A stretch of 64,000 nt of DNA from Methanobacteriota archaeon (GTDB taxonomy: Archaea; Thermoplasmatota; Thermoplasmata; RBG-16-68-12; JAFNFQ01), in the NCBI GenBank assembly GCA_017885655.1, contig JAFNFQ010000004.1:89373-153372 (forward strand), in the 5' to 3' direction. The translations under genes and the position numbers were made by a program. Numbering within the stretch: the first letter of the stretch is position 1; every line of letters begins with the position of its first letter. The notes under the pieces are model-generated. The model saw only the letters and a program-made list of their open reading frames with translations. It made no database searches and was not told the origin of the DNA. Below, piece after piece: positions 10,703-63,294 of this stretch.

Positions 10703-10736
10703 TCGCTACTTACGGCTTTTGAGGAAAGCTCCTCCA

Positions 10737-44427: not shown

Positions 44428-44496
44428 GTTCCATCCCCCGGGATCAGGCGGTCCCCGGCGGGGTCGGTGCTCCTCTCTCGGTCATCGTCCGGCAGC

Positions 44497-45852: not shown

Positions 45853-46320
45853 TTGCCTTTGAAGAAAGTAAAGCTGACGATACGAGAGAAGATCCAGGAC
45901 GCTGGTTTCAGGCTCTGCCTCATGAAGGAGGCGCAGAAGCAGTTCATCACGCGCTTCTTCGCCGAGAACCTCCAGGACAAGAAGACCGTCGAGGTCCTGG
46001 TGGGCGGCCGCCGCAAGGACGTCGATCGATACATCCAGACCGTGAAGGGAATGCGCACGGGGAATCCCAAGGGCTTCGATGTGGAAACACAGGACTATGA
46101 CGGGAACATAATGGACATCAGGGATTTCGCCGGCTATCTGACGGCGGAACAGCTGGTGAGAGGCGTGGGGGGAATGACGGGGCTTGTCTCGAGGATCGAC
46201 ACGCTCGACAAGACGCTCGTCGTTCGCCTTTCCGGGCTTGAGACCACATTGAAGGGAATCGGCCCTGACATCGCAAGAGCCATACTGGAGGGGTTCGAGC
46301 GCCTCGAGAAGCGGGGTTAG
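45853..46320 (+). CDS. Hypothetical protein (155 aa; TTG start, first ATG at Met24)
   Basis: Single long ORF in an otherwise ORF-poor stretch. The N-terminal region is loosely acylphosphatase-like (FR...A...G..N..D..VEVLV.G); not confidently assigned. Confidence 0.35.
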   Translation: MPLKKVKLTIREKIQDAGFRLCLMKEAQKQFITRFFAENLQDKKTVEVLVGGRRKDVDRYIQTVKGMRTGNPKGFDVETQDYDGNIMDIRDFAGYLTAEQLVRGVGGMTGLVSRIDTLDKTLVVRLSGLETTLKGIGPDIARAILEGFERLEKRG

Positions 46321-46562
46321 ACCCCGGTCAGAGGGCGGCGCGTCTCAGGATATCATCCAGAGATCGTGGTGGCGCGAGACCAAGCCAGCCGGCCGATTGC
46401 CAGTTTCCCCCATGGTTCTCATGGACCGTCCATGGCAGATTTTCTTCATCCTGAGTTGGAGATTGGGCCGGATTCGCCGTCCCTGCATTCGCTTTGGATT
46501 GGCACTCATCTTCCTAATATCCTTCCTGACTCGAGGGCTCTGACAGATCACTGCGCGATGCC

Positions 46563-46700
46563 CTAGGCACGTGACTTCGCACCGCCTCTGAGAATGACGG
46601 TCGCAACTCCATCCAGGCACAGCGGCGACAGCTTCCCCTCCGAGCCCTCATGGATGCACGTCTCTTTCAGGTCGCATCCGGGGCAGAACTGCACATGGAG
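46563..46700. repeat. Copy c of the repeated gene-3' segment (about 140 bp, Y-type end)
   Basis: Minus-strand reading VQFCPGCDLKETCIHEGSEGKLSPLCLDGVATVILRGGAKSRA* versus RFCPECDLRATCVHEGSEGRLSPLCLDGVATAILRANFESSI* of the full gene. Similarity continues about 25 bp past the stop codon. Confidence 0.7.
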
Positions 46701-46751
46701 CCCGACCGATTTAAATTGACGCGGTGTGCCGATGCTCGGAGACGACCGCGA

Positions 46752-49087: not shown

Positions 49088-49492
49088 CTAGATGGACGAT
49101 TCGAAGTTTGCGCGGAGTATCGCGGTCGCAACACCGTCCAGGCACAGCGGCGACAGCCTCCCCTCCGAGCCCTCGTGGACGCACGTCGCCCTCAGGTCGC
49201 ATTCGGGGCAGAACCGCACGCGGATCTCGCTCTCATCCAGCCCCAGGAGGCCCGCCTGGTCGAACATGTCGTGGAGGAGCTTCAGGTACTTGCCCTCGGC
49301 TATGCGCGGCACGTCGTACTTCGCCGCCTTCAGTCCCCCGCGCGCGGTCCAGTACTCGTAGAGGCGCCGCGCGCCCTTGGAGCTGTTGCACAAGGGGCCG
49401 ACCCGGAAGGCATTCCTCCCGCCACTAGTCAATAAATGGCGATTGCATTCCGTGCAGCTTCGCCACGAATTCTTCAGTCTTCTTAAAGTCAC
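49088..49492 (-). CDS. Hypothetical small Cys-pair protein (134 aa if GTG at 49492); the full-length gene whose 3' end recurs in copies a-d
   Basis: SCTECNRH ... FCPECDLRATCVHEG Cys pairs. 3' region 49088-49284 is the repeat unit. The GTG start overlaps the upstream RNase-III-like gene by 68 nt, so the true start may be an internal TTG/GTG/ATG. Confidence 0.5.
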   Translation of the reverse strand: MTLRRLKNSWRSCTECNRHLLTSGGRNAFRVGPLCNSSKGARRLYEYWTARGGLKAAKYDVPRIAEGKYLKLLHDMFDQAGLLGLDESEIRVRFCPECDLRATCVHEGSEGRLSPLCLDGVATAILRANFESSI

Positions 49493-49937
49493 GATCAGTA
49501 TCTAAGTAAACGGCTCCTATGAGCGCCTCTAGCGTCTCGGCCGGAATTCTCGGTTGCACATCGAGGCTCTTATCTCTCTCCGACCCTCCCAGCCGAATGA
49601 GACCTCCGACTCCTTTTTCCAGTGCGAGTTTTGCTAACGTCGGTTTCTCTTCCATCTTTCTCCTTTCCACGGTAATTTTGTCCCCTGTCTCGAAGCCGGA
49701 GTGATATAGGATATCGGTTAGTGCCGCTTTGAGCAAAGCATCGCCCAAGGTCGCGAGCGCTGTCTGATCCTCACATTTCGGTTGCTGCAACGCCCGATCC
49801 TCGACAAACTTCTGACGGGTCAATGCACGGATGAGAATATCTGTGTTTCCGAATCGATGGCCGAGAATTCCTTCCTCTTCGTTCGCTTTGATGATCTTGT
49901 CCATTGGGTCTTCGAGTTTCAAGCAATCACCTCGCAC
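49425..49937 (-). CDS. RNase III-domain-like protein (170 aa, single catalytic-domain type)
   Basis: LATLGDALLKAALTDILY and ETLEALIGAVYLD resemble the RNase III signature (ERLEFLGDA ... EALIGAIYLD). Confidence 0.55.
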   Translation of the reverse strand: MRGDCLKLEDPMDKIIKANEEEGILGHRFGNTDILIRALTRQKFVEDRALQQPKCEDQTALATLGDALLKAALTDILYHSGFETGDKITVERRKMEEKPTLAKLALEKGVGGLIRLGGSERDKSLDVQPRIPAETLEALIGAVYLDTDRDFKKTEEFVAKLHGMQSPFID

Positions 49938-50150: not shown

Positions 50151-50633
50151 TTGCGCATGGCAGGAGTTACGTGCCTGACCTTGTCGGGGGACAACTACTG
50201 GGCGGTCGTCAACAGCGTCTGGTCTCTTCTGTATGAGGGGCTTTCAGTCCCTAGCCACCTCATTCTCATAACTAACGGCCGCCACAAAGATGTCGCGAAG
50301 AGGGCTTCCGATTCGTTGCAGACACTGCTTTCCTTCTATGGGATGACCAGCGTCCCCGAAATCATCGTCGTCCCCGAATATGACCTGCGCCAGGTACACG
50401 ACAAGCTGTTTGAAATCATGCAGAAGGCCAAGTCGGAGGGAGAAGTCGCTCTCAATATCACTCCGGCTAGAAAGTCGCTTGCCACAGTCGCCATGGTCGC
50501 CGCATGGGAAACTAAGGTGAATAGAATCCATTACGTTTACCTCAGAAGTCTCAAGGACGCCGATTGTCCCTATCCCCTCATAGCAAGGGATCTCCATGAA
50601 TTGCTCGACTTGAAGGAGCTCCGCCCGAAATGA
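50151..50633 (+). CDS. CARF-like Rossmann-fold sensor domain protein (degenerate ligand-site motif)
   Basis: VTCLTLSGD ... HLILITNG ... VALNITPARKSLATVAMVAAWE ... IHYVYL parallels the Csa3-like protein in this window (VHIATVGE ... LHINITGGTNIMASAALIAG ... VYYI), but with NITPA in place of NITGG. TATA CTATATAC at 50118-50125; likely ATG at 50157. Confidence 0.45.
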   Translation: MRMAGVTCLTLSGDNYWAVVNSVWSLLYEGLSVPSHLILITNGRHKDVAKRASDSLQTLLSFYGMTSVPEIIVVPEYDLRQVHDKLFEIMQKAKSEGEVALNITPARKSLATVAMVAAWETKVNRIHYVYLRSLKDADCPYPLIARDLHELLDLKELRPK

Positions 50634-51718
50634 GCACATGGTGCGCGCCCAGCAGATTCCTGATGGCGCTGGTCAACAGGATTTTTGGATATGGACGCGG
50701 GGTAATCACAATCAGATATCCACTCTATGGCACGGAGCTCTTCTCATTCGATTCATCATTCAAAGTCAAGAGCGCCTCATCCAAGCACAAGTTTTACGAA
50801 GCGCGAAAGGCTGCAACCTCATGGAGCAAGGAGCTGAGTCACGAAGCGCCCGAGTGGAACCAAGTGATGGACTCGTTCGTATCCTCTGGGACATTGAAGC
50901 CTCAGAACCTCGCCGATTTCGCTGTATGGGCCAGGAAGACACTGGAGGATAGGAGACGTCCGGAATTGGCAGCTCGCCCATTCTTCCTGGCAATCGATAC
51001 GAATGTAGCTTACAATCGCCTGTTCACGCGGCATTTTCCAATCGATGGCCCAAGCGGCGTCGTTAGAGCTCCAGATTTCAGATTCCTGTTATGCGATGTT
51101 GTCCGTCGAGAAGTCGACGAACAGATTAAACGAAAATATCGCGGGGAACTGAACCAAATATTCACCCATCCTGAACAGGAATCGATTCTCAAGGAAATCG
51201 GAGGACGCAATGTCCTCGTGGCGCGAAGGGCCAAGCTCGCTCAGAATGAAATCGACTACCTTGACAAAACGCTCAACGCCTTGACTGTTCCTTGCACGGA
51301 GTTCCCCTCAGACAAGGAAGATCGAGATATTCTCATCGCAAAGACCTACGGAGCATTCAGCCGGGACAGAAACGTGGACATAGCGCTGCTGACGATGGAC
51401 CAGAACATGGTGGACCACGCGAAGAATGCTCAGATTATGTCCTTCTCGTTAAGGGTCCCTGGAGCTTCGGAACTGGAGAAGGTCGAACTGCACTACTCCC
51501 TGTGGCATCTGCTCCACGATCTGGCCGTTGCGCTAGGCGTGATTGACATAGAGCCCTTCGGGACGCGGGTGTACGGCGAGTGGGCCGGAAAAACCACGTC
51601 TGACTACGGCGCAGAGAGAGTGAAGATAGTTCTCGACGACAAAGCTCCAATAGCGAATGAAGTGGTCAGGGACTTCCGGATTTGCGCGAAAGTCTTGGGA
51701 GTGTCAATTAGCGGCTGA
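50630..51718 (+). CDS. PIN-domain nuclease with N- and C-terminal extensions
   Basis: ATGA overlap with the CARF-like gene. PIN core PFFLAIDTNVAYN ... DVVRREVDEQ ... LLTMDQNMVDHA. Confidence 0.65.
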   Translation: MSTWCAPSRFLMALVNRIFGYGRGVITIRYPLYGTELFSFDSSFKVKSASSKHKFYEARKAATSWSKELSHEAPEWNQVMDSFVSSGTLKPQNLADFAVWARKTLEDRRRPELAARPFFLAIDTNVAYNRLFTRHFPIDGPSGVVRAPDFRFLLCDVVRREVDEQIKRKYRGELNQIFTHPEQESILKEIGGRNVLVARRAKLAQNEIDYLDKTLNALTVPCTEFPSDKEDRDILIAKTYGAFSRDRNVDIALLTMDQNMVDHAKNAQIMSFSLRVPGASELEKVELHYSLWHLLHDLAVALGVIDIEPFGTRVYGEWAGKTTSDYGAERVKIVLDDKAPIANEVVRDFRICAKVLGVSISG

Positions 51719-53230
51719 CGGTTTGCCATCGTGGGATTCAGCGACTATGTCGGCGCCTAGATCCTTCGCTCTCTGTGTGACACGTTTAGCATCATCAGGT
51801 GACTTGGCCAGGATGTATTTCTTCCCTTTGTGTTGGAATAGATCTACATCTTCTTCTGACTTCAACCTCTGGGCACCCTTTGGAAGAGTCGGAGGGAGCA
51901 CTGTCCAACGGTACACGATCTCGTGGGGCAATGATTGCACCTCCCCCTCATCGGGAATAGGGAATTCCTTGGGCTCGGTCTCCGCCATCGAGTCCAACGA
52001 TTTCGCTTGAATTGTGCCAAGGTCTTTCTCGATTGTCCCTCCTACGATTGCCGGCGACAGTCCCCTGCCGTCCCAGAGGAGGCATTCGCCGGTAACCTGG
52101 CCGCGGGGCAGGTTCTCCGTCAGCCTGAAGTGGAATGTCTTGGGCCATGACTCCATCAGGGTTCGAAGACTCTCGCACTGGGCGGGGGTGAGTTGGACAC
52201 CGGTCTCGAACCCGGTATCTAATCCGCGTGATTCTACATTGGCCGTCATCACGATGCCACGCATCTTGCCGCTCATCTTGCCTAACATGGCTTTCGCGTG
52301 CAGGTACCTGTGAGCATATACATCCGCGCCTCCGCGCATCAGATTCACGGCAGCCTCCATGTTCTTGACGCGGGGTCGCATGAAAATGTGCGTTCTCAGC
52401 CCACCCTTGACCCTCTTCAGCAGGTTTTGTGTGACTTCGTGTTTCATATCGAGATTATAGATTGACATCCAGAAATCATCCTGTGCACTCTCCACGAAGT
52501 CCAACAGAGATTGCCTGAGGGTTTGCATGTTCTGCGTCGTCACGGGCAGGTCAGACGGCAACACGGACTTTATCTCCATCCTACCGGACTTGCTGACCGG
52601 TTCTAGGCGTCCAGCTCGGAACAGCTCGTGTTCGCTCTCCTGCCAGAATCCGATTCTGAACTGTTCGAAAAGCGCTTTCGCAAGATCACCTTTCAAGGGG
52701 ATAACCACCTCAACGTTCCGTGTCAAGGCTTCTGTGGCAAGATTTGCGGTGGAAAGGAAGGCTGCCGTCTTGCCAGGACTCCGCGGATCGACGATCACAA
52801 ATTTCGAATGGAAGTGCCCTGCTGTGCGGACCAATACTCTGCCCGCCAATGCGTCCAATGTCGCCTTATGCTCCTCAACCTGCCTCTTAGCGAATTCCGA
52901 TTCCTGAGAAAGGTCTTTGAGCAGATGTTGCTCCGACATCGTCAGCACGTAACAGCGCACACCTCTTTTCGACGCCTCCAGGAGCGCGTTGCCGATATTC
53001 TGATCGTAGAACAGGAAAGAGCAAAGGCATACCGTTTCCATAGAAGAGCGTATGGCTTCGACGATCATCGAACGGGCGAACCCAGTTTCCTCGGTGGGCC
53101 ATATGGTGGCGTCGCGCCTCGGCGGCACTGCGGGCGATCCCATCTGAGGCGCCAAAGGAATCCATGCAATCCCTAGAGGATTTTCCCTGAAAGGCTTGAT
53201 CATCTTCTTCTCTAGCGCCCAAGTGCTCAT
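51704..53230 (-). CDS. Phospholipase-D-family nuclease (two HKD motifs), MkoB-like
   Basis: HFHSKFVIVD and HAKAMLGK HxK motifs. ATG at 53230 gives an ATGA overlap with the upstream gene; the track ORF from 53278 would overlap it by 52 nt. Confidence 0.8.
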   Translation of the reverse strand: MSTWALEKKMIKPFRENPLGIAWIPLAPQMGSPAVPPRRDATIWPTEETGFARSMIVEAIRSSMETVCLCSFLFYDQNIGNALLEASKRGVRCYVLTMSEQHLLKDLSQESEFAKRQVEEHKATLDALAGRVLVRTAGHFHSKFVIVDPRSPGKTAAFLSTANLATEALTRNVEVVIPLKGDLAKALFEQFRIGFWQESEHELFRAGRLEPVSKSGRMEIKSVLPSDLPVTTQNMQTLRQSLLDFVESAQDDFWMSIYNLDMKHEVTQNLLKRVKGGLRTHIFMRPRVKNMEAAVNLMRGGADVYAHRYLHAKAMLGKMSGKMRGIVMTANVESRGLDTGFETGVQLTPAQCESLRTLMESWPKTFHFRLTENLPRGQVTGECLLWDGRGLSPAIVGGTIEKDLGTIQAKSLDSMAETEPKEFPIPDEGEVQSLPHEIVYRWTVLPPTLPKGAQRLKSEEDVDLFQHKGKKYILAKSPDDAKRVTQRAKDLGADIVAESHDGKPSAAN

Positions 53231-54357
53231 CGAACCGCCTCCTGCTTCCCCAGGTCGGTTGGTGCCCGCAAGTACCAATATGCCGCTGGCAATAAATCAC
53301 CACGAAGGATTGCGCCATGCCGAATCTGATCGGCCATCTTATCATGTTCAGGCAATGTGATATCGAAATCTGGGAATCTGTCGGTGACACCGCGGACTAG
53401 TTTAGGATAGCTGTTTTCATCAAGGTATTCGGTGATTTCATGCTCGAGAACCCACTCCCCCCATTCTTGTGCGTCTTTGACCGTTCGCGGGGCAATTGGC
53501 ACGTCACGGATTTCTGTTTCATCAAACGTGCCGTATTCACTCACGGTCGGCCTATCTAACTTCAGTTGCCTCGACATCGACGTCTTCTCTGCATCCGACA
53601 CCTCATTGAAGCCGCATCGCAAGACCCCTCTTCGAGCATCCCATGCCTGGCGAGTGTCGCCCAACAACTCAAGGAAAATGCTTTCGTGGGAAACCTTGGG
53701 CGACTCCATATCCCACTTTGCGAAACCTTCTGCCATGAGCTCAGATTCTCTATCAGGGTGGATGATCCATTTCAGCGAAAGCCTCTCATTCTGTTCCACC
53801 TGCGAACGTACGCATCGTTCAGCGACTGACATGATGCGGATTCGCTCCCCTAATCGTGGAAGCATGATTGACTGGTCTTTCAATTCGACAAGCCATGGCG
53901 GCACCTGCTCGACCTCCTCAGATTGTTTGCCTTTCGATTCGAGCCTCCTCGCCGCCCTGCGCGCGTTCACGATGTCCTCCACCATGGGCTCGTGCGTGCC
54001 TTCCAAATCCAGGATTCGCTGAGGAACCAACGGGTCGGTCGTGCAAAGAATTCTATAACGTCCATGCTCTGGCAATGGCACAGTTTTTCGCTCAAGCGAT
54101 TCTCTCCCTAAAGGCGTGAGACTTCCATAATCGTCAAGTAGCCCGAGATCTCGGCAGCGCGAAATTACCGTATGGCCAACGGCTATCGGTCGATCAATGA
54201 GGAGGGAATTGCAGATGTCCTCTGCTCTGATTTGTCCTCCGAGTTCTTCCGCTCGCATCAGAACGGAGATGACATCCTTGCGCCTCTCCTCCCTCCCGAC
54301 TTCCATAACAACTTCATACGCGGTCATTGACACATTTCGACTAAGGATGATCTTCAT
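53227..54357 (-). CDS. Hypothetical protein (376 aa) embedded between the helicase and PLD genes
   Basis: 4-nt overlaps on both sides indicate co-translation within the operon. No recognisable motif; the N-terminus is possibly wHTH-like. Confidence 0.6.
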   Translation of the reverse strand: MKIILSRNVSMTAYEVVMEVGREERRKDVISVLMRAEELGGQIRAEDICNSLLIDRPIAVGHTVISRCRDLGLLDDYGSLTPLGRESLERKTVPLPEHGRYRILCTTDPLVPQRILDLEGTHEPMVEDIVNARRAARRLESKGKQSEEVEQVPPWLVELKDQSIMLPRLGERIRIMSVAERCVRSQVEQNERLSLKWIIHPDRESELMAEGFAKWDMESPKVSHESIFLELLGDTRQAWDARRGVLRCGFNEVSDAEKTSMSRQLKLDRPTVSEYGTFDETEIRDVPIAPRTVKDAQEWGEWVLEHEITEYLDENSYPKLVRGVTDRFPDFDITLPEHDKMADQIRHGAILRGDLLPAAYWYLRAPTDLGKQEAVR

Positions 54358-57002
54358 CTTGTGTTCGACCTCCCTTCTTTTGAACTGTATGAGAAGGCTA
54401 TTGGTATCTGGGTCCCGAGCCGCCGCAACAAATCAGATTTCCACTGGCGGGCGAAGCCCCTGCAATTCCCCACTAGGACCAATTGGAATCGCCCTCTCGT
54501 TATCGCGACGTTCAATCTATGAGGACTGTCGAGGAATCCAATGCTTTTTCTTCCGAGTGGATCCCGAACAAAGGATAAAAGCACGAAATCTGCCTCGTGC
54601 CCTTGGAATCGGTCAACAGATCCAAGAGAGACGCGGACCCTGCCATCGCCGGTCTTGAAATGCTGCCTGTTCCAAGACTTGAACAAGCTACGCAATCGTC
54701 GTCTCAGCTCGCTTTCTTGGGCGAGATAGAATGTCAGCACGGCAACATCCCACGGCAATATAGTGCCGTTCTTCTTCTTCGGATTGCTAGTCGCCCACGA
54801 AAGGAAGGTCTGGAGCTCATCCATTATAATGTCGGCCTCGGCAAAATTGCGGTTGGCGTTCGGATCTTCATTCGCTAGAACATGAATCCAAACGGATCGG
54901 GCGCCGTATCTTCCGATATTCAGAGACCGCTGTGAAGCAATGTTTGGTGGGTCTCTGAGGCTTTGGCCTTCGTAGATATTCTCACGCGGGAACCGGGAGA
55001 TATCAGGATGCATTCGATGCTGATACGTCAAGACCGCGTGTCGCTTGCTCAGAACTTCCGTGGGCAGCCCGTGGGTGATTGCCGTTGGCTCATACTTCAT
55101 CTGCTCCCTTTCGAATCCGACTTGAAGCATTTCCAGGATAGAAGGCAGTGCTACGCGCTTGATTGAATTGACTTCATATGAAATACGATTCATTTCTTTT
55201 TCATCGAGCCACTTTGGCAGGAGCGCGTCGACATCTGCGGCGTACCGTTTCGCCTCTTCAGGCCGACGGCGGAGTTCAAACTGACGAATGAGGCGCCATC
55301 CGATTTCCGAAGCCCACGTTTTCTCCTCGCGTTCCATCTGTTCCTCATTGTCGGCCTCCTCGGGATGACGCACTCGCCAGTACGCCATTCTTCGCTCGAG
55401 GCGTGACGTGATAACCGTCTCGGAGAGAACTTGAACATTCAGAGGCAATAAACGACCGATGACGGTCAAATCCTTCGTGTCAGCGACCATCAGGTCGGCC
55501 CAAAGTGGCCCCAGGTCTCCACTATCGATCGTCTGCGGCGACAATTGTACCGTAGGTATGCCCAGCGCTTCCGCTTGTTTTACTGCCCATTCCCTGACCT
55601 TCGGGTCGGGGTCGCAAAGGAGAAAGCTGCGTTTCTCGCCCTTCTTGCGACGCGCCCGCACGAAGGCCTTGAACACTGGTAGTATCGCGCGGCTTTCCCT
55701 CTCGTCCAGGATGCCCGCAAGATTGGCCTCGACCTCGACATTGTTCACGAAGGGTGATAGCTGATTGACATCTCCAACGAGGACCCATTTCTTCGCATAG
55801 AGTGCTGGAACCAAGAACTCCTGGAATGGGGTCTTGCTCGCCTCATCAACAATCAGTGTGTCAAACTCCGGGAACGCCGGCCGCACGAGACCCACCGCTA
55901 TGTCAGGATGTTTGAGAATGCCTATGGTGGTCCCGCATACGAGATTCGCAGAATCCAGGATCAATCGCTGAAGAACCTTTTCGCCATCTTCTTCCAAAGC
56001 TTTCAGCAGGTAGTCCTGTGCGGGGGTCCTCCGCGCAATGCCTTTGAGTTTCTTCTTGAGTTCGTTCCTCTCAGTCTCGAGCCGGTTCTTGAGCAGAAGA
56101 TGAGAGACTTGCTCGGAAACGTCGAAATCCCTCGAGGCAATTCGCACCGCGACGACGGACCTTTCCATCCACCCCAGATCTACAAGCTTCTCCAAGACAT
56201 TGTCAACCGCCACATGCGTGGATGCGCAAAGAAGGACTCGATGTCCCAGCTCGATTTCTTGAAGAATCAACTCGCAGATGGTGACGGTTTTTCCGCTGCC
56301 GGGGGGCCCTTCAAGAATCGCGAAATCCGGGGTGCCAAGGGCTTTCTCCACAAAGTCACGTTGTTCATCGACTCCCGCAAAGTCGTCATCGACCAGTATT
56401 CTCCAGTTAATGGGGGAGACAGCCGCAACTGGTTCCCATCGAACATTGTTGTAGCCTTCGGCCAATGAAATCAAAGGCCTGTGAGCAGGGTGAGGACTCT
56501 GCCGAATATTCTCCAGGGCCATTAGCTCGCGATAGAGGTTCCATGTATTGGGGTGAATGTAGACTTTCTCTGCAGCTGGCAATCGGGACACACAGATCGC
56601 GTCAATTTCGGGCTCCCTGTCAAGCACCTCAATATCGCCGCGTCCTGCCTTTGCTTTATCGGAAATGAAATCCGCATCGAAGAACTCATCGAACACTTCT
56701 TCGGGAGTCTCAGCGTCGATTTCTCTCAGACGAATCCAAAATCCCATCGCACTCGTTTTTCGTTGTGCCGGTTGGTGAATGTTTTGTTCGGAGGGCATCG
56801 ATCCATTGGCGGTTCGATTTCGGATAATCTCTGGGTCAATAGGTCCCTCCCAGGCGAGCATCAATGCCTGCGCTTCAATCCTGTACTTTGCGCTGCTAAG
56901 ATACTTGTAGAACGGTCGGTAGTTGTTGTAGGTTCTTTCCAAGAGAACCTGAATGTCTGTGTTAGGAACTCTTGGCATATTAGCAAAGTGCAGGTTCAGC
57001 AT
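54354..57002 (-). CDS. Superfamily-1 Upf1/DNA2-like helicase (COG1112-type, MkoA-like) with about 230-aa N-terminal domain
   Basis: Walker A GPPGSGKTV, Walker B LIVDEASKT, motif VI VAITRGRFQLVLVG. Confidence 0.85.
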   Translation of the reverse strand: MLNLHFANMPRVPNTDIQVLLERTYNNYRPFYKYLSSAKYRIEAQALMLAWEGPIDPEIIRNRTANGSMPSEQNIHQPAQRKTSAMGFWIRLREIDAETPEEVFDEFFDADFISDKAKAGRGDIEVLDREPEIDAICVSRLPAAEKVYIHPNTWNLYRELMALENIRQSPHPAHRPLISLAEGYNNVRWEPVAAVSPINWRILVDDDFAGVDEQRDFVEKALGTPDFAILEGPPGSGKTVTICELILQEIELGHRVLLCASTHVAVDNVLEKLVDLGWMERSVVAVRIASRDFDVSEQVSHLLLKNRLETERNELKKKLKGIARRTPAQDYLLKALEEDGEKVLQRLILDSANLVCGTTIGILKHPDIAVGLVRPAFPEFDTLIVDEASKTPFQEFLVPALYAKKWVLVGDVNQLSPFVNNVEVEANLAGILDERESRAILPVFKAFVRARRKKGEKRSFLLCDPDPKVREWAVKQAEALGIPTVQLSPQTIDSGDLGPLWADLMVADTKDLTVIGRLLPLNVQVLSETVITSRLERRMAYWRVRHPEEADNEEQMEREEKTWASEIGWRLIRQFELRRRPEEAKRYAADVDALLPKWLDEKEMNRISYEVNSIKRVALPSILEMLQVGFEREQMKYEPTAITHGLPTEVLSKRHAVLTYQHRMHPDISRFPRENIYEGQSLRDPPNIASQRSLNIGRYGARSVWIHVLANEDPNANRNFAEADIIMDELQTFLSWATSNPKKKNGTILPWDVAVLTFYLAQESELRRRLRSLFKSWNRQHFKTGDGRVRVSLGSVDRFQGHEADFVLLSFVRDPLGRKSIGFLDSPHRLNVAITRGRFQLVLVGNCRGFARQWKSDLLRRLGTQIPIAFSYSSKEGRSNTR

Positions 57003-57901
57003 CCAATTTCCCTTCCCCTTTCCCTCAACACTCCGAAGATCTCCTTGTCATCAGCGATGACCTTCCCCCCGGGACGCCATTGGTAATGGCCGCCTCGAAC
57101 AAGAAACTTTCGCCTATCCCATCCCGCTCTCTGAATAGCATCTTGCACTCCGACCTCGAGAATCGACGGTCCGAACCCATAACTGCCACCCGTATTCTGG
57201 AAGAATCGACCGAGTGGGTCCATCATGAGGTATGAGTCTGTCATGGCCCGATTATCCTCTTTGACTGGATTGAGGCATTCATGGCGAGCGACGAAGGCTT
57301 CGAACTGCCCATTCATAGTGGCCAAGTCTGCGAAGCTGTCATCGTTCTCTCCTTTTATTGGGAGCATTTGAAAGACCTTCCACCGCCGAGGTTTCAGTTC
57401 GGCAACGAAGGATCGCATGTCTTCTCCCCAATTCATTGAGGTGACAACAGTGTTGACTTTGAATCGTATGCCGAATTCATGAATCCGCTTTGCCACTTCG
57501 CGAACAAGTGCGACATGATTTCCATCACCCCGCCCGAGAGCTTTTTCCACTTGCTCTGATGCGCTGTCAACGCTCAGAGCGATCCAGTCGACTAGGTCTG
57601 CAATCGTGCTGAGATAGGTCTTATTCAGCCGCGTCCCGTTCGATATGATCATCGTTGTCAGGCCAGCTTCTTTTGAAGCCTGAAGTACCTCTCGGAGGTG
57701 GGAACACAATGTCGGCTCCCCTCCCGCCAAGGTCAACTTTTCCGTCCCCGCTTTGCGGAGAATCTCCGGAATCTTCACCGCCTGATTCATCGAAAGCGGG
57801 GTACAGATTCCCTTGAAATGGGCGAAGCAGAATCTGCAGCGATAGTTGCACCATGGCCATATATGCCAATTCACCGAAACCGGTTCCACGCCCCCATTCA
57901 T
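56996..57901 (-). CDS. Prokaryotic viperin (pVip) radical-SAM enzyme
   Basis: Residue-level correspondence with animal viperin: PVSVNWHIWPWCNYRCRFCF vs [20 protein letters not shown]; AGGEP vs SGGEPF; ISNGTRL vs VSNGSLI; FKVNTVV vs FKINSVI; RWKVFQMLPIKGEN vs RWKVFQCLLIEGEN; MTDSYLMMD vs MKDSYLILD; ILEVGVQDAIQRAGWDRRKFLVRGGHYQW vs [29 protein letters not shown]. Confidence 0.9.
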   Translation of the reverse strand: MNGGVEPVSVNWHIWPWCNYRCRFCFAHFKGICTPLSMNQAVKIPEILRKAGTEKLTLAGGEPTLCSHLREVLQASKEAGLTTMIISNGTRLNKTYLSTIADLVDWIALSVDSASEQVEKALGRGDGNHVALVREVAKRIHEFGIRFKVNTVVTSMNWGEDMRSFVAELKPRRWKVFQMLPIKGENDDSFADLATMNGQFEAFVARHECLNPVKEDNRAMTDSYLMMDPLGRFFQNTGGSYGFGPSILEVGVQDAIQRAGWDRRKFLVRGGHYQWRPGGKVIADDKEIFGVLRERGREIGC

Positions 57902-57946
57902 CTAGATTGTCAGGTATTGCAGACACCTATAGCGGTTCTCTTTTAT

Positions 57947-57967
57947 AGTAAAATGCTGCATTTTACT
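57947..57967. promoter_or_regulatory. Perfect 10-bp inverted repeat (AGTAAAATGC-T-GCATTTTACT) in the pVip/csa3 divergent promoter; candidate Csa3 operator
   Basis: Lies between the TTTTATAG TATA-like box (57941-57948) and the csa3-like ATG (57973), i.e. over the expected leaderless transcription start. Confidence 0.4.
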
Positions 57968-57972
57968 GACGG

Positions 57973-58617
57973 ATGTGCGCAGTCCATATAGCCACGGTCG
58001 GCGAAACGCCCGAGCCAATCATAGAAGGCGTCAGACACCACAGCGTCGATTTGCAGGTGCTCCTGCATAGTCGCGAGACAAAGAGTGTTGCCGTCGAAAT
58101 TCGCAGGAGGATTAAGAGCCTTATTGGCAGAGACATCTGTGAGCTGAAGGAGATCGATCCGTTCGACATGCGCGACATCATGACTGCCATCGTCTCATAT
58201 CGAAAAAGGATGCCCGCGGAGGTGCTCCACATCAACATAACGGGCGGAACCAACATCATGGCATCTGCGGCCCTGATAGCGGGATTCGTGGTCGGGGCAC
58301 GCGTTTACTATATCCGGAAGGATCCAAACCCGAAGATACCGCTCGCTGATCGTATCATCGAGCTTCCGGTTCCCCGCGTTTCTCTTGAGAGCCTCGACGA
58401 GAATCATCGCAGGATTCTGAAATTGATACATAATCGAGGAACGGAGTTCGCTCCGGCCAACAGCGTGATTGCGACCGAATTGGGGATGTCGCGGCAGCTC
58501 GTGAGCTACCACCTCAGGAGGCTCGAGAGGGCGGGCTTATTGCACCTGACACTTGAAGGTCGAAACAAGATCGCGAGTCTGACGCCCGAAGGAGACCTCT
58601 ACGCTGAGATTGTTTGA
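57973..58617 (+). CDS. csa3: Csa3-like transcriptional regulator (CARF domain + winged HTH)
   Basis: CARF motifs VHIATVGETPEP and LHINITGGTNIMASAALIAGFVVGARVYYI; C-terminal wHTH RILKLIHNRG ... IATELGMSRQLVSYHLRRLERAGLL. Confidence 0.8.
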   Translation: MCAVHIATVGETPEPIIEGVRHHSVDLQVLLHSRETKSVAVEIRRRIKSLIGRDICELKEIDPFDMRDIMTAIVSYRKRMPAEVLHINITGGTNIMASAALIAGFVVGARVYYIRKDPNPKIPLADRIIELPVPRVSLESLDENHRRILKLIHNRGTEFAPANSVIATELGMSRQLVSYHLRRLERAGLLHLTLEGRNKIASLTPEGDLYAEIV

Positions 58618-59635: not shown

Positions 59636-60199
59636 ATGCAACATTCGATGCCTGAGAGATTGATGATTTTCATCGATGGTTCAAATCTCTTTCACACCGG
59701 TCGACTGTACGGGAAGCATTACCGAATCGAGGACCTATGCAACGAACTGTCCGCGGACAGACAACTCGTCCGGACCTACTACTATGGTTCCATTCCCACT
59801 GGCGGAGACGACGACAAGGTGGAGAAGCAGAAAGGATTCCATATGAGGCTGGAATATGGGGGAATCAATGTCAGCATCATTCCGCTGAAGACACGGGAGG
59901 TCAATTTTAAATGTCCAAAGTGTGGGGCAAAATCGGCTTTCAGCCGCAATGTCGAGAAGGGGGTGGACGTCGCGCTCGTCACTGACATGCTTGCTTTCGG
60001 TTTCCGCGATGGCTACGATGTGGCCTTGCTGGTCGCGGGCGACCTGGATTACATCAGAGCGATTGAGGAAGTGAAGAGGATACCAAAAAGGGTCGAGATA
60101 GCATTCTTCGAGAGCATCCAGGCGATCAGCGGCGCACTGAAGAGGAAAGCGGATCGCTTCATTCCTCTGGAACCGATAATCAACAAGATCGGCACCTAG
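59636..60199 (+). CDS. NYN-domain protein, paralog 2, with an inserted CPKCG zinc-ribbon
   Basis: MIFIDGSNLF ... YYYGS ... KCPKCG ... EKGVDVALVTDML ... LVAGDLDYIRAIEEV. Confidence 0.8.
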   Translation: MQHSMPERLMIFIDGSNLFHTGRLYGKHYRIEDLCNELSADRQLVRTYYYGSIPTGGDDDKVEKQKGFHMRLEYGGINVSIIPLKTREVNFKCPKCGAKSAFSRNVEKGVDVALVTDMLAFGFRDGYDVALLVAGDLDYIRAIEEVKRIPKRVEIAFFESIQAISGALKRKADRFIPLEPIINKIGT

Positions 60200-60419
60200 T
60201 GTTTAGACGTAGTTATTTCACCAGGTCGCCGAGGAGATACCGAAAGCGTCTCCCCGCCAGGGCATGTTGGTTCCGCCGACCTGTTAAGTTGTTTCACCAC
60301 CCTTATGACTCCCGCGTATCTTAAGCTTTTTCCTGGGGCTATCTCGAAGGGGCAGTACATGATTCTCGAATAGGCATCGTTGGCGGCGATGACACGGTCC
60401 GTGATCTGTTGACTTGGTA

Positions 60420-60515
60420 AAGGTTTTTTACCAGACGACCGACAAGCCATCCCCGCGAACACTTGTCGTCAAGGCATTAGCCGTCGTCTGGAGAGCTATT
60501 TTCAGACACCTCATT
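60420..60515. repeat. Conserved hairpin element (copy 2) downstream of NYN paralog 2
   Basis: TTTTTT-ACCAGACGACCG-(loop with CTTGTCGT)-CCGTCGTCTGG-AGAGCTATTTTC. See 48880-48975. Confidence 0.55.
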
Positions 60516-60677
60516 CGTTTCGGACTTTGAAGCCTTTATGCTTCAATTCATCAAGGTGCGCCGCACACGATGTCGCGAACCGAATTGAGTACACGGTCGG
60601 AGGAATCCCTGATGTCTTTCTCCGTGATGTTCAAGCGAGATCGCATCCGCATTTCTTTCCGCGCGAACGGGTTGGAC

Positions 60678-61187
60678 TTAGGGTACCCAGATGCATTCTT
60701 CGACTGTGACGAATTCGAAGGTCGCCGATTCCGGATTGCCGTCCTTGCGTATCCGCGAGAGGAGCGTTTCGAAGTCCTCATCGGAGTCGATTACCTTCCG
60801 ATTCTTCACTGCGATGTAGCGGTCGCCGAACTTCTTGCGCAGGGTCAACATGGACCTATCGATCCATGCCGAGTTCCGCTGCTCTCTTCGAATCGAGCGG
60901 AGTATCTCTGCCTTGTTCACGTTCATTACAGGCTCTTCATGGCCTGCTATGGAGATAAAGCCTTCTCGTCCGATTATGGTCGGTCCGAGTTGCAACGCAC
61001 ATCTACGGCGAATCGGGGTGAGTATTGAGAAGGGGCGTTGGCTTGAGTCTCTTTTCATGAGTGAGAGGGCGAATTTTCGACCCCCTACATGGTTCAAGAT
61101 AGTCTTGCCTATCCTATATTCTCTCATTGATTCAAGAATCAATAGAGCAGGATTGGGGTATGGACCATGTGCCTCGCACCTACTCAA
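60678..61187 (-). CDS. Hypothetical protein; true gene may be only the C-terminal roughly 80 aa
   Basis: The C-terminal part (MNVNKAEILRSI ... DRYIAVKNRKVIDSDEDFETLLSRI ... FEFV) looks like a small self-contained domain. The long N-terminal extension is low-complexity. Confidence 0.4.
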   Translation of the reverse strand: MSRCEAHGPYPNPALLILESMREYRIGKTILNHVGGRKFALSLMKRDSSQRPFSILTPIRRRCALQLGPTIIGREGFISIAGHEEPVMNVNKAEILRSIRREQRNSAWIDRSMLTLRKKFGDRYIAVKNRKVIDSDEDFETLLSRIRKDGNPESATFEFVTVEECIWVP

Positions 61188-61316
61188 TCCCGCCAGAGAG
61201 TGCGAATATCCTTTCGATCATTCCGCCCGAGACTCCCATGGGTTCTGGACAAGTCCAGTGATGTCTCAGACGGATGGGCGATAGCATTTTAGCGAGGCAT
61301 GCCATTCATTATTTAA

Positions 61317-61664
61317 ATGGAAGCGCAGGGGGGCGCGACGCTCCGTCACGCAAAGACGCATCTGAGCCGCGAGGGACTCGCATGCGTTATTGTCGATTAC
61401 TTGGTTCTAAGAAAGGAGAGTACCAAGCCAGGATGCACCGCGTACGACATCGCTAAAAATGCACCTAGGCTGAGGACCACACAGCGTCAGCAGCGAATCG
61501 AGGAGATTCTAAGGGATCTCGAGACACAGGGAATCGTCCACTGCGAGCGCTACGAGAAAGCAAGCTACTTCTCGATTACTGATGATGGGATGAAGTGGTA
61601 CAAGGATATCGTCAAACGTTTCTATGATGTGCTCGGGCCGATTTATCCTGGATTTCAGGACTGA
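61317..61664 (+). CDS. PadR-like winged-helix transcriptional regulator
   Basis: VIVDYLVLRKESTKPGCTAYDIAKNA ... RQQRIEEILRDLETQGIVHCE ... YFSITDDG follows the PadR pattern (hGYel ... G.lYp.L.rLe..G). Confidence 0.5.
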   Translation: MEAQGGATLRHAKTHLSREGLACVIVDYLVLRKESTKPGCTAYDIAKNAPRLRTTQRQQRIEEILRDLETQGIVHCERYEKASYFSITDDGMKWYKDIVKRFYDVLGPIYPGFQD

Positions 61665-61754
61665 CTCGCAACGGATTTCGCTTGAATATTGCCCCGGATA
61701 TTATTCGGTCGGGTTTAGATCAGTCAGCTGTGTTCAGATTCCTTAGAAGGGGCT

Positions 61755-62501
61755 TCATCTGACCCAGATTGAAGTGAATTTGCCGTCACTATGCGTGAGG
61801 AGTGCATTGAAGACATTCTTTGTGGGCAATCCCTCCTCACTCCGAGTCCATTCGACCGCGTCGGCCTCGAAACCGGCTTTGGACACAGCCAATATCACGA
61901 AAGGTCCCCTGCCACGTCTTCTTGCAACGTCCATGACATCCGCTTTGAACTCGACAAGTTCCGCCATGGTCGTCGGACTTTGCCCTTCGAACCTTCTTAT
62001 GGCTGCCAATCGTGCTCCGAATTCAGCATAGATATTGAAACGGTGCGAGCCAGTCTTTCCAAGGACTTCAGCGTCGAAAGTGACTTTAGCTTTTGAGAAC
62101 TCGGGATGAAGCTCCGTGAGCTTGGCCATTATCTGCTTATCCAAATCCTCGCTCGTAGTCGGCAACATCTCGAATTTGACTTTGAACCAAAGAGGGTAGA
62201 AGCATTCAAAGAAGTGCTCTAAAGGTTTATCGAACTTCATGGACGGGGCAATCACAAAGAGTCCGAAAAAGCCCAGGATTATTCCGGCCAACCCGGAAAT
62301 AAGAACAGCCAAATCCGTAAACGGCCCCCACACTTCCGGTTCAAGGACCATTGCCAGAATCCATAGAATCAATGTGATTATCATGACGAGGCTGGATACT
62401 TTCGCCCAGAGTACCAAAGTTCTGAGCTTCTGTCGCTGGCTAAACAGGGTTTCTGACGCTTCCAAGAGAGTAAGTACCGGAGGAGTGCCTGCTTTATTCA
62501 C
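61755..62501 (-). CDS. Membrane protein (two TM helices) with a C-terminal cytoplasmic domain of unknown function (possibly nuclease-like)
   Basis: TM segments LVMIITLILWILAMV and LAVLISGLAGIILGFFGLFVIA; C-terminal D..E.K-like residues (DAEVLGK ... ELVEFKAD). Confidence 0.5.
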   Translation of the reverse strand: MNKAGTPPVLTLLEASETLFSQRQKLRTLVLWAKVSSLVMIITLILWILAMVLEPEVWGPFTDLAVLISGLAGIILGFFGLFVIAPSMKFDKPLEHFFECFYPLWFKVKFEMLPTTSEDLDKQIMAKLTELHPEFSKAKVTFDAEVLGKTGSHRFNIYAEFGARLAAIRRFEGQSPTTMAELVEFKADVMDVARRRGRGPFVILAVSKAGFEADAVEWTRSEEGLPTKNVFNALLTHSDGKFTSIWVR

Positions 62502-62661
62502 GATGCTGAATATGAAATGGCGACATATAGCCGGTACTGGAATTTCGTTCTAGTTCCACGACGCGGAAATCATCATACGTGAACTGATGTTCTCCTGAAT
62601 CGTATTTTCGTTCGTTGCCAACCCTAGTATCTCTTCATGCCTCTATGTCTCGGTGTAAAAA

Positions 62662-63294
62662 ATGCGAGACACGGAAGCAGATTCGGAAATAGGTGTGAGC
62701 GCGGATGTGGGAACGTCAGCCAAGAGAGTGGCCGTCTTCGTTGACGTGCCAAACCTCTGGGTCGTTGCGAAAGACAATGGTTTCGATTTTGACACGAAAC
62801 CAGTGATCGACGCAGCAAAGACCTACGGTCGGGTCGTTCTCGCAAAGGCATATGCCGCCATCCAGTGGGGGCGGCCAGTGAATTCTGGGGTGATAGACCT
62901 CGAGCATGTCGGCTTCGAGGCCGTGCATAGATGCGTGTCGCCGAAAGATGGCAATGGAAAGAAAGACATCGACTCCCTACTCTTGACGGATATGATCGTG
63001 GCCGCGTACGAAAACGTGGCCGACACGTTCCTGCTTGCAAGTGGAGACTCAGACTACGTTCCAGCCATTCGGACGATCAGACGGCTTGGCAAGAAGGTCG
63101 TGGTCATGTCATACCCCGCCCAGATGTCCCCGCGGCTGCTTGCAATCGCAGACGAGGCCATATCGATGATCCCCCCCTGCGAAGTGAAGGATCCCGGGAA
63201 CGAAAGTTGTGCAATGCCCCCCGCCATCCGGGATTCGACGTGGAGTCGGGACTGTGGGGTCCCTGTTGATGGCTCAGCAGGAGTCAAAGGATAG
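62662..63294 (+). CDS. NYN-domain protein, paralog 3
   Basis: VAVFVDVPNLW ... KDIDSLLLTDMIVAAY ... LLASGDSDYVPAIRTIRRLGKKVVV. Confidence 0.75.
   Translation: MRDTEADSEIGVSADVGTSAKRVAVFVDVPNLWVVAKDNGFDFDTKPVIDAAKTYGRVVLAKAYAAIQWGRPVNSGVIDLEHVGFEAVHRCVSPKDGNGKKDIDSLLLTDMIVAAYENVADTFLLASGDSDYVPAIRTIRRLGKKVVVMSYPAQMSPRLLAIADEAISMIPPCEVKDPGNESCAMPPAIRDSTWSRDCGVPVDGSAGVKG

What the first reader, a model, noticed from the sequence alone, without database searches (positions are those of the whole stretch)
57902..57972. Perfect 21-bp palindrome at the pVip/csa3 divergent promoter
AGTAAAATGC-T-GCATTTTACT (57947-57967) has 10-bp perfect inverted arms. It lies directly between a TATA-like TTTTATAG and the csa3-like ATG and overlaps the expected leaderless transcription start. 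This geometry suits an (auto)repressor operator for the wHTH dimer. The motif could control both divergent transcripts.
Basis: seen in the sequence. Interest (0 to 1): 0.5.

Follow-up and report, generated by a model that had tools for sequence, protein, structure and literature searches.

The report
Operator site of a viperin defence regulator
The palindrome is real and is most likely the DNA site where a signal-sensing regulator switches an antiviral gene cluster (viperin, helicase, nuclease) on or off in an archaeon; the same site recurs at the same place in related clusters, including those of Heimdallarchaeota.

Summary
In detail: AGTAAAATGC-T-GCATTTTACT lies at 57947-57967 in the 71-bp gap between a prokaryotic viperin (pVip, minus strand) and a CARF+winged-helix regulator (plus strand).

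A perfect 10-bp-arm palindrome is not rare across 64 kb, so the case rests on comparison with related loci.
- In 10 related loci the same dyad, CTTTTATAGTAAAA-N7-TTTTACTAT, sits in the same register. Its half-sites are conserved and its central 7 nt vary.
- In a leave-one-out matrix scan it is the top hit of the whole locus in 10 of 11 loci.
- Its centre lies 54-56 nt from the divergent effector gene's start in all 9 loci measured.
- More distant regulator/pVip pairs carry different palindromes at the regulator's start codon and a related second site before pVip. The recognition helix changes with the site.

The host is an archaeon (exosome Csl4, Rio1 kinase), so the TATA/leaderless reading holds.

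Best explanation (about 0.7): this is the operator of the Csa3-like regulator. It overlaps the regulator's own core promoter and sits just upstream of the pVip-operon promoter. Binding, ligand and sign of regulation are untested. As an element it is a new member of a known kind. The CARF-controlled pVip/helicase/PLD cassette around it did not turn up in the literature held here.

The parts
57947..57967 (.). Perfect palindrome AGTAAAATGC-T-GCATTTTACT (the finding)
   Evidence: Read directly; unique in the window at up to 3 mismatches.
57940..57969 (.). Conserved dyad CTTTTATAGTAAAA-N7-TTTTACTGA, the proposed operator. The half-sites ATAGTAAAA / TTTTACT are conserved; the central 7 nt (57954-57960) are not.
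   Evidence: Alignment of 11 loci. Leave-one-out matrix score of 35.8 bits against 6.7 for the next-best site in 64 kb. The 12-mer TACTATAAAAGA (minus strand, 57950-57939) is exact in L006, L085, L087 and L089.
57941..57948 (+). TATA-like TTTTATAG, starting 32 nt before the regulator ATG; the likely TATA box of a leaderless regulator mRNA (inferred)
   Evidence: Spacing of 29-30 nt from TATAG/TATAA to the start codon in window, L077, L079 and L078 (coordinates worked out by hand); L083 is 1-2 nt longer by the hexamer-to-start distances. The genome-wide pattern of TATA-like boxes at -28 to -38.
57927..57933 (-). Weak TATA-like CTATAGG about 32 nt before the pVip ATG; a candidate core promoter of a leaderless pVip-operon mRNA (inferred)
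   Evidence: Position matches the TTTTAATAT boxes at about -31 of pVip in L085, L006, L007 and L005 (positions counted by hand on the sequences printed).
57973..58617 (+). CARF + winged-helix regulator (214 aa), Csa3-like fold, Pfam HFX_2341-like
   Evidence: Pfam PF19810, 44.3 bits (cut-off 30), plus HTH_20. PADLOC CARF3, 9e-49. AlphaFold2 model pLDDT 92.5. Best full-length PDB match Csa3 2wte, TM 0.69, and the Csa3-cA4 complex 6wxq.
56996..57901 (-). Prokaryotic viperin (pVip), first gene of the divergent operon
   Evidence: NCBIfam NF038283, 285 bits (cut-off 180). PADLOC pVip, 2e-83. CNYRCRFC motif at residues 18-25.
54354..57002 (-). Superfamily-1 (Upf1-like) helicase, MkoA-like; overlaps the pVip stop
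   Evidence: Pfam AAA_11/AAA_12. PADLOC MkoA, 4e-83. Conserved next to the regulator in the related loci.
53227..54357 (-). 376-aa protein of unknown function (weak N-terminal winged-helix hit), conserved member of the operon
   Evidence: Pfam PF24409, only 19 bits. Homologues in the same position in L005-7, L077, L079, L080, L085, L089, L092 and L095.
51704..53278 (-). Phospholipase-D-family nuclease, last gene of the operon
   Evidence: PLDc_2 on the identical gene in L001. PADLOC DrmC, 2e-15; MkoB only 4e-4. Conserved in related loci.
50151..51718 (+). Small CARF protein (160 aa) plus a 362-aa PIN-like protein. The same pair follows the regulator in Heimdall-type loci.
   Evidence: PADLOC CARF_m1, 3e-23, and the C-terminal part of CARF_PIN, 7e-17. 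Pairs of the same sizes in L006, L007, L085, L087 and L089 with shared CARF and DTN motifs.

Best explanation
The palindrome is this genome's version of a conserved dyad operator, ATAGTAAAA-N7-TTTTACTAT. The dimeric CARF + winged-helix regulator encoded next to it most likely binds it.

In this archaeon the site spans about -33 to -4 of the regulator's own leaderless promoter. It overlaps the end of the TATA box and the region that RNA polymerase must open, so a bound dimer would shut off the regulator gene (autorepression).

The same site lies at about -39 to -68 of the divergent operon (pVip, helicase, 376-aa protein, PLD nuclease). That is directly upstream of the operon's BRE/TATA position, so the same bound dimer also sets that operon's expression.

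A nucleotide signal bound by the CARF domain, by analogy a cyclic oligoadenylate, would change DNA binding and so couple infection sensing to transcription of the effectors.

Shown here: the sequence, its conservation, its fixed spacing, the co-variation with the recognition helix, and the fold of the regulator.
Inferred: who binds, the transcription starts, the ligand, and whether the effect on the operon is repression (favoured) or activation.
For: 1. Footprint-like conservation. Eleven loci whose regulators are only 37-58% identical share CTTTTATAGTAAAA-N7-TTTTAC.AT in one register. The centre is variable and the flanks are unrelated.
2. A leave-one-out matrix ranks the site first in the whole locus in 10 of 11 loci, by wide margins.
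3. The distance from the dyad centre to the divergent gene's start is 54-56 nt in all 9 loci, whether that gene is pVip or a NYN nuclease. In L078 and L079 the starts agree with independent gene calls.
4. In Heimdall-type loci both genes have their own TATA-like boxes at about -31 (positions counted by hand on the printed sequences). The dyad arms are therefore not simply the two TATA boxes.
5. L005 (complete Ca. Heimdallarchaeum aukensis genome) has a second full dyad in a one-directional promoter context.
6. Distant regulator/pVip pairs show the same logic with other sequences. L102 has a 12-bp-arm palindrome overlapping the regulator ATG, plus a related site before pVip. L103 has ATGATTAGAT-N6-ATCTAATCAT at the ATG, plus ATTAGATAAA-N20-TTTATCTAAT before pVip. 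L154 has the same site twice.
7. The recognition helix is QxxSYHL wherever the site is ATAGTAAAA, and differs where the site differs.
8. The regulator has a Csa3-like fold. Csa3b binds TTTTC-N8-GAAAA palindromes in a promoter (PMC5389559). The family's namesake, HFX_2341, represses cas genes (PMC11434293).
Against: - There are no binding or transcript data.
- The perfection of the 21-mer is not significant across the whole window.
- A crude test for perfect palindromes in the 70 nt upstream of 50 non-redundant family members showed no general enrichment (Fisher p = 0.41). An upstream palindrome is therefore not a family-wide rule, or the test is too blunt: it cuts off the Heimdall sites.
- The left half-site is itself TATA-like, so part of its conservation may reflect basal promoter function.
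- For L077 the 55-nt spacing needs one of three in-frame GTG starts, not the gene caller's choice.
- No cyclic-nucleotide synthase, cas gene or CRISPR array lies in the window, so the signal source is unknown.
- The related loci share ancestry, so the counts of loci are not fully independent.
Confidence: 0.7

Rival explanations
1. The dyad is basal promoter architecture only: mirrored TATA/BRE-like elements of a bidirectional promoter, or an AT-rich melting region. It would be read by TBP/TFB and RNA polymerase, with no dedicated regulator binding.
For: The outer arms read TATAAAAG / CTTTTATA, which is TATA-like. In the window TTTTATAG is at the right distance to serve the regulator gene. In L077 it is the only AT-rich stretch in the gap. 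The right arm in the window's group lies where promoter opening occurs.
Against: Heimdall-type loci have separate, better-placed TATA-like boxes at about -31 of both genes. Other promoters in the window do not contain the motif (next-best score 6.7 bits against 35.8). The specific AGTA/TACT core and the strict N13 register are kept while the centre varies. L005 keeps both arms in a one-directional context. Paralogous systems have non-TATA palindromes (ATGATTAGAT, GATATACTGA) in the same positions.
Confidence: 0.12
2. The dyad is an operator, but for a different DNA-binding protein of the cassette or host. One candidate is the conserved 376-aa protein with a weak N-terminal winged-helix hit.
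For: The 376-aa protein co-occurs with the dyad in the same loci and has a faint winged-helix match (PF24409, 19 bits). All loci were retrieved through the regulator, so the regulator and the 376-aa protein cannot be separated by co-occurrence.
Against: The regulator's recognition helix co-varies with the site across paralogues. L102, L103 and L154 have operators at the regulator's own start but no hit to the 376-aa protein in the DNA held. Sites overlapping a regulator's own start codon are the classic autoregulation layout.
Confidence: 0.08
3. The palindrome acts as an RNA hairpin (a 5'-leader or attenuator structure) in one of the divergent transcripts.
For: The window's copy folds into a 9-10 bp hairpin: -6.9 kcal/mol on the plus strand (z = -2.4) and -6.4 on the minus strand (z = -4.0).
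Against: The equivalent hairpin is not predicted in L077, L083 or L079, which have no compensatory changes and only 5-6 A-U pairs left. With the predicted promoters only one arm, or neither, would be transcribed. There is no Rfam match.
Confidence: 0.04
4. The palindrome is a chance feature of AT-rich intergenic DNA with no function.
For: Palindromes of this quality are expected about once per window of this size.
Against: The half-sites are conserved in register in loci with 37-58% identical regulators while the flanks are randomised.
Confidence: 0.03

Closest known systems
Csa3b and its operator in Sulfolobus/Saccharolobus type I-A CRISPR-Cas (PMC5389559)
   Same: A CARF + winged-helix dimer encoded next to the genes it controls. 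It binds imperfect palindromes with short A/T half-sites and a spacer (TTTTC-N8-GAAAA, against GTAAAA-N7-TTTTAC here) in an archaeal promoter and represses a defence operon until infection. The predicted fold of the window protein matches Csa3 best.
   Different: The target here is a pVip/helicase/PLD operon, not cas genes. There is one dyad overlapping the regulator's own core promoter, rather than two tandem sites upstream of the target's BRE/TATA. Sequence identity to Csa3 is only about 16%, and the protein is below the NCBIfam Csa3 cut-off. No Cascade partner is evident.
Csa3a (activator of adaptation cas genes and DNA-repair genes; binds cA4; PMC4333418, PMC5587795, PMC8699464)
   Same: The same domain architecture and a cyclic tetra-adenylate-binding CARF domain. 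It shows that this kind of regulator can activate as well as repress.
   Different: Whether the window protein activates, and what ligand it binds, was not tested here.
HFX_2341 of Haloferax mediterranei (PMC11434293), namesake of Pfam PF19810
   Same: The window protein's N-terminal domain belongs to this Pfam family. HFX_2341 represses cas gene expression.
   Different: The passages of that paper searched here mention no binding site. HFX_2341 is described there as a global regulator that is not tied to a pVip cassette.
BrxR/CapW-type WYL regulators of defence islands (PMC9122601)
   Same: A ligand-sensing transcription factor encoded beside diverse defence systems. By my recollection of this work, not checked here, it binds inverted repeats in its own promoter region.
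   Different: The sensor domain differs (WYL, not CARF). These regulators are bacterial and act at sigma-70 promoters.

Membership tests
Csa3 (NCBIfam TIGR01884, cas_HTH) | [quoted passage not shown] | tested here: met
   Pfam HFX_2341_N (residues 4-115) plus HTH_20/HTH_24 (143-192). AlphaFold2 model pLDDT 92.5. Full-length fold match to Csa3 2wte (TM 0.69) and 6wxq.
Csa3 (NCBIfam TIGR01884, cas_HTH) | Sequence score above the curated family cut-off | tested here: not met
   TIGR01884 scores 40.6 bits against a cut-off of 60.2. It should therefore be called Csa3-like by fold, not a Csa3 family member.
Csa3 (NCBIfam TIGR01884, cas_HTH) | Encoded next to CRISPR-Cas genes (typically type I-A) | tested here: not met
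   No CRISPR-like array. No cas hits among the ORFs scanned across the window. The neighbours are pVip, a helicase, a PLD nuclease and NYN proteins.
Csa3 (NCBIfam TIGR01884, cas_HTH) | Binds cyclic tetra-adenylate in the CARF pocket | not testable with these tools
   Only indirect evidence: the NITGGTNIM loop is conserved, and the closest CARF sequences in the PDB are Can2 (8bao; a second Can2, 7bdv, is solved with cA4) and the cA4-activated Card1.
HFX_2341-like regulators (Pfam PF19810) | N-terminal domain scores above the Pfam gathering threshold | tested here: met
   44.3 bits against a cut-off of 30. The precomputed annotations list PF19810 for all 27 homologues returned.
Transcription-factor operator (autoregulatory dyad) | Two-fold symmetric half-sites that are conserved in orthologous promoters, with a variable spacer | tested here: met
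Transcription-factor operator (autoregulatory dyad) | Fixed position relative to a core promoter | tested here: met
   54-56 nt from the divergent gene's start in 9 loci, and 16-18 nt from the regulator's start in 5 loci. The transcription starts themselves are inferred.
Transcription-factor operator (autoregulatory dyad) | Site sequence co-varies with the DNA-reading helix of the regulator | tested here: met
   Three helix types match three site types. The sample is small.
Transcription-factor operator (autoregulatory dyad) | Specific binding by the regulator and an effect on transcription | not testable with these tools
   Needs gel shift, footprinting and reporter or transcript assays.
Prokaryotic viperin (pVip) | Score above the curated cut-off, and a CxxxCxxC radical-SAM motif | tested here: met
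   NF038283 scores 285 bits against a cut-off of 180. CNYRCRFC lies at residues 18-25 of the 301-aa reading frame.
Mokosh type I (MkoA helicase + MkoB PLD nuclease) | Both MkoA and MkoB homologues are present | tested here: inconclusive
   The helicase hits MkoA at 4e-83, but only over the C-terminal helicase part of the profile. The PLD protein hits DrmC better (2e-15) than MkoB (4e-4). It is Mokosh-like in composition; membership is not shown.

The most novel reading that the evidence does not exclude
The dyad is the transcriptional switch of an undescribed, conserved seven-gene archaeal defence cassette. The cassette consists of a CARF-wHTH regulator, a variable first effector (pVip, NYN nuclease or a small endonuclease-like protein), an Upf1-like helicase, a 376-aa protein, a PLD nuclease, and a split CARF + PIN pair. 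It is found in Heimdallarchaeota and other archaea. Under this reading a cyclic-nucleotide signal made elsewhere in the cell (for example by type III CRISPR-Cas) induces viperin and Mokosh-like immunity at the level of transcription.
Probability: 0.4. Interest if true: 0.75.

Novelty: new member of a known kind. Interest (0 to 1): 0.5.

Why it matters
CARF + winged-helix regulators have so far been studied as regulators of CRISPR-Cas and repair genes. Here a Csa3-like regulator has a defined, conserved site in front of a viperin/helicase/PLD operon, and the arrangement is shared with Heimdallarchaeota. This gives a directly testable case of second-messenger signalling controlling a non-CRISPR defence system at the transcriptional level. 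The 30-bp site and the 214-aa protein are small enough for immediate gel-shift and ligand-screening experiments. The site's matrix can also be used to map the regulon in complete genomes. It further suggests that archaeal viperins, usually treated as single-gene systems, can be part of a larger regulated operon.

Tried and rejected
1. Bacterial host. The PPDK gene at 12112-14862 is 74-76% identical to proteins named as Planctomycetota, and a sigma-70-like CAGACA-18-TATAGT match exists. I dropped this after finding an archaeal exosome Csl4 (2ba1, 1e-32) and a Rio1 kinase (1zp9, 9e-55) on the same contig. The PPDK is probably a transferred gene or a naming bias in the database.
2. Near-identical contigs from other samples (L001-L004) gave no variation in the gap.
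3. A generic test for perfect palindromes in the 70 nt upstream of 50 non-redundant family members was not significant.
4. Further copies in the window: there are none beyond chance. The 1-mismatch copy at 61284-61292 sits in a TATA-like position before the ORF at 61317, but it is within chance expectation.
5. RNA structure and Rfam: weak and not conserved; no match.
6. A scan of viral contigs with the 18-base dyad found 23 AT-rich contigs with no cassette proteins and no outer CTTTT/AAAAG arms. These are unrelated AT-rich palindromes.
7. A search of the window for a signal synthase or CRISPR-Cas found nothing.
8. Literature searches for pVip together with Csa3 or CARF regulators returned nothing relevant.

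Full report
**Observation.** The sequence at 57947-57967 is AGTAAAATGC-T-GCATTTTACT, with perfect 10-bp inverted arms. It is the only such sequence in the window at up to 3 mismatches.
- It lies in the 71-bp gap between two divergent genes. On the minus strand is a radical-SAM protein that is a prokaryotic viperin: NCBIfam NF038283, 285 bits against a cut-off of 180, and PADLOC pVip 2e-83. On the plus strand is a 214-aa protein with an N-terminal CARF-type domain (Pfam HFX_2341_N) and a C-terminal winged helix.
- The regulator's ATG at 57973 is confirmed by alignment with 19 homologues that all begin M-x-x-V-H-I-A-T-V-G.
- The pVip ATG at 57901 is the first start codon after a stop, and it is needed to keep the CNYRCRFC iron-sulfur motif. 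Automatic gene calls on identical contigs start 37 codons later and lose that motif.
- The palindrome ends 5 nt before the regulator ATG, and its first two bases overlap TTTTATAG.

**Is it more than chance?** Taken alone, barely.
- The window has two distinct perfect palindromes with arms of at least 10 bp, giving three entries in the count; simulated sequences average 1.3.
- Within this particular 71-nt gap the probability is about 4-9 in 10,000.

**Host.** I was first misled by a pyruvate-phosphate dikinase that is 74-76% identical to Planctomycetota proteins. The same contig encodes an archaeal exosome Csl4 subunit (PDB 2ba1, 1e-32) and a Rio1 kinase (1zp9, 9e-55), and also has TPD and HerA hits.
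- Across the window many genes have TATA-like boxes beginning 28-38 nt before the start codon. The regulator's TTTTATAG begins at -32.
- The locus lies in a low-GC island: 0.52 against 0.59, from about 48 kb onward.

**Related loci.** Homologues of the regulator and scans of genome and metagenome collections brought in 155 further loci; the first four came from the exact-sequence look-up.
- tblastn with the island's proteins shows a conserved cassette: the regulator, divergent from [pVip or a NYN nuclease]-[superfamily-1 helicase, MkoA-like]-[376-aa protein]-[PLD nuclease].
- It occurs in a complete Ca. Heimdallarchaeum aukensis genome (L005), in Heimdall metagenome-assembled genomes (L006, L007), and in many metagenome contigs (L077, L079, L083, L085, L087, L089, L092, L095 and others).
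- A small CARF protein plus a PIN-like protein belongs to the cassette as well. This pair is at 50151-51718 in the window and directly after the regulator in the Heimdall-type loci.

**The conserved dyad.** Aligned on the regulator side of the gap, 11 loci share one motif in one register: CTTTT-ATAGTA-AAA-N7-TTT-TAC(TAT).
- Examples: L085 has TCTTTTATAGTA-N13-TACTATAAAAGA with perfect 12-bp arms. L007 has 14-bp arms with one mismatch. L086 has ATAGTAAAAAA-TGG-TTTCTTACTAT. L083 has GTAAAA-N7-TTTTAC.
- The central 7 nt differ in every locus (TGCTGCA, GACGCCA, GAATGGA, GTGTAGG and so on). The DNA outside the motif is unrelated.
- The extra complementarity that makes the window's copy a perfect 21-mer is therefore lineage-specific.
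- A matrix built from the other loci, with the centre masked, ranks this site first in the whole locus in 10 of 11 cases. In the window it scores 35.8 bits against 6.7 for the next-best site.

**Operator or just promoter?** Five observations favour a dedicated binding site.
1. The dyad centre is 54-56 nt from the divergent gene's start codon in all nine loci measured. This holds whether that gene is pVip or NYN. The distance to the regulator's start is either 16-18 nt (the window's group) or 53-62 nt (the Heimdall group). In L078 and L079 the starts agree with independent gene calls.
2. In the Heimdall group both genes have their own TATA-like boxes at about -31 (TTTTAATAT for pVip, AATATAAA for the regulator; positions counted by hand on the printed sequences). 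The dyad therefore sits between two core promoters and abuts their upstream edges, rather than being the TATA boxes.
3. L005 has a second complete dyad just after the regulator gene, about 55 nt upstream of a small same-strand ORF with a ribosome-binding site. That is a one-directional context.
4. More distant regulator/pVip pairs (27-31% identity) use different palindromes in the same way.
   - L102 has ATGATATACTGA-A-TCAGTATATCAT overlapping the regulator's ATG, and ATATCATA-N9-TATGATAT before pVip.
   - L103 has ATGATTAGAT-N6-ATCTAATCAT at the ATG, and ATTAGATAAA-N20-TTTATCTAAT before pVip.
   - L154 carries the same AATAATACAAA-N5/6-TTTGTACAATA site (spacer 5 or 6 nt) at the regulator's ATG and again about 140 nt before the next gene.
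5. The presumed recognition helix is Q-x-x-S-Y-H-L in every protein paired with ATAGTAAAA. It differs (SEVMVGRN, STPTAKYH) where the site differs.

A blunt family-wide test for perfect palindromes in the 70 nt upstream of 50 non-redundant homologues was negative. The claim is therefore limited to these clades.

**The regulator.** The AlphaFold2 model is confident (pLDDT 92.5).
- Its best full-length match among solved structures is Csa3 (2wte, TM 0.69), along with the Csa3-cA4 complexes 6wxq and 6w11.
- By sequence its CARF domain is nearest to Can2 (8bao) and to cA4-activated Card1.
- It misses the NCBIfam Csa3 cut-off (40.6 against 60.2 bits), and no cas genes or CRISPR array are in the window. 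It is Csa3-like in architecture and fold, but it should be filed under the HFX_2341-like Pfam family.
- Known relatives give the mechanistic precedent. Csa3b represses a defence operon through TTTTC-N8-GAAAA palindromes (PMC5389559), a geometry close to GTAAAA-N7-TTTTAC. HFX_2341 represses cas genes (PMC11434293). Csa3a activates and binds cA4 (PMC4333418, PMC8699464).

**Mechanism proposed.** A dimer binds the dyad.
- In the window's group the site overlaps the 3' end of the regulator's TATA box and the region between TATA and the leaderless start. This should block assembly or opening of the transcription complex, giving autorepression.
- For the pVip operon the site lies immediately upstream of the BRE/TATA position. 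There it could exclude TFB (repression, which I favour because the effectors are likely costly) or recruit it (activation, as with Csa3a).
- Ligand binding to the CARF domain would switch the state.
- These steps are inferred. No synthase for such a signal is present in the window.

**Rivals.** The alternatives are a pure basal promoter element (0.12), another binding protein such as the 376-aa cassette protein (0.08), an RNA hairpin (0.04) and chance (0.03).
- The hairpin is predicted only in the window's copy, at -6.9 kcal/mol. It is not predicted in L077, L083 or L079, and there is no Rfam match.

**Novelty and interest.** As an element this is an ordinary kind of thing: the operator of a one-component regulator. 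I rate it a new member of a known kind.
- What raises its interest is the context. The held literature links neither pVip nor Mokosh-like helicase/PLD genes to a CARF transcription factor. Yet the cassette with its dyad is conserved from this archaeon to Heimdallarchaeota.
- That makes a transcription-level link between cyclic-nucleotide signalling and viperin defence directly testable with a 30-bp DNA and a 214-aa protein.

Noticed in passing
window 50151-58617; L005-L007, L077, L079, L083, L085, L087, L089, L092, L095: A conserved multi-gene cassette surrounds the finding. It comprises a CARF-wHTH regulator, pVip, an Upf1-like helicase, a 376-aa protein, a PLD nuclease, and a small CARF protein with a PIN-like partner. 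It occurs in a complete Heimdallarchaeum genome and in many metagenome contigs, and I found no description of it in the papers searched.
   Followed up: partly
L078 2483-3103, L079 5324-5929, L080 about 1560-1860: The first gene of the operon is interchangeable. pVip is replaced by a NYN nuclease in L078 and L079. In L080 it is replaced by a small ORF that I judged by eye to be endonuclease-like (not scanned against any family), and there the regulator is co-directional with the helicase operon. A 1-mismatch copy of the left arm (TCTTTTACAGTA, L080 1411) lies between the regulator and that operon.
   Followed up: partly
window 12112-14862: The pyruvate-phosphate dikinase is 74-76% identical to Planctomycetota proteins, although the contig is archaeal (Csl4 at 3723-4595, Rio1 at 10719-11528). 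This is probably inter-domain gene transfer, and it nearly misled the host assignment.
   Followed up: partly
window 56996-57901 (L001 7693-8487): Automatic gene calls in the public collection start pVip 37 codons too late (264 aa). That removes the CxxxCxxC radical-SAM motif and makes the gap look 182 bp long instead of 71 bp.
   Followed up: yes
L121 9200-9211 (also L123, L125, L127; 1 mismatch in L114): The exact 12-mer TCTTTTATAGTA occurs in GC-rich (0.59-0.60) contigs, next to a GTGCCC/GGGCAC hairpin and upstream of a 648-aa ORF. It lies about 3.6 kb from two tandem, distant CARF-wHTH paralogues. It has no inverted partner in the usual register and remains unexplained.
   Followed up: partly
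L005 6650-6679: A second full dyad (TTTTTATAATAAAAAAGCAATTTTTACTTT) lies directly after the regulator gene in Ca. Heimdallarchaeum aukensis, upstream of a small ORF preceded by AGGTGA. It suggests a regulon of more than one promoter.
   Followed up: partly
L102 1460-1484 and 2252-2276; L103 7326-7351 and 8062-8101: Distant CARF-wHTH/pVip pairs have perfect 10-12-bp-arm palindromes whose right arm runs into the regulator's ATG. A related inverted repeat lies in front of pVip.
   Followed up: yes
window 1022-1044: This is the window's other perfect palindrome, TTCGCGGTCAC-A-GTGACCGCGAA (11-bp arms). It is GC-rich and lies inside an ORF-dense region.
   Followed up: no
window 36001-40000: GC content rises to 0.66-0.685, against about 0.59 around it. 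The stretch coincides with a 960-aa ORF (35929-38811) that has no PADLOC hit.
   Followed up: no
window 41718-47921 and 59636-63294; L001 14151-19314: The island holds further defence-type genes: two Fic/SoFic-like proteins, two NYN proteins, a DUF5678 protein and an LmuC-like small protein. Just past the window's end lie a second MkoA-like helicase (1117 aa) and two more ORFs.
   Followed up: no
window 49425-49937: An RNase III-like ORF lies inside the low-GC island of an archaeal contig.
   Followed up: no
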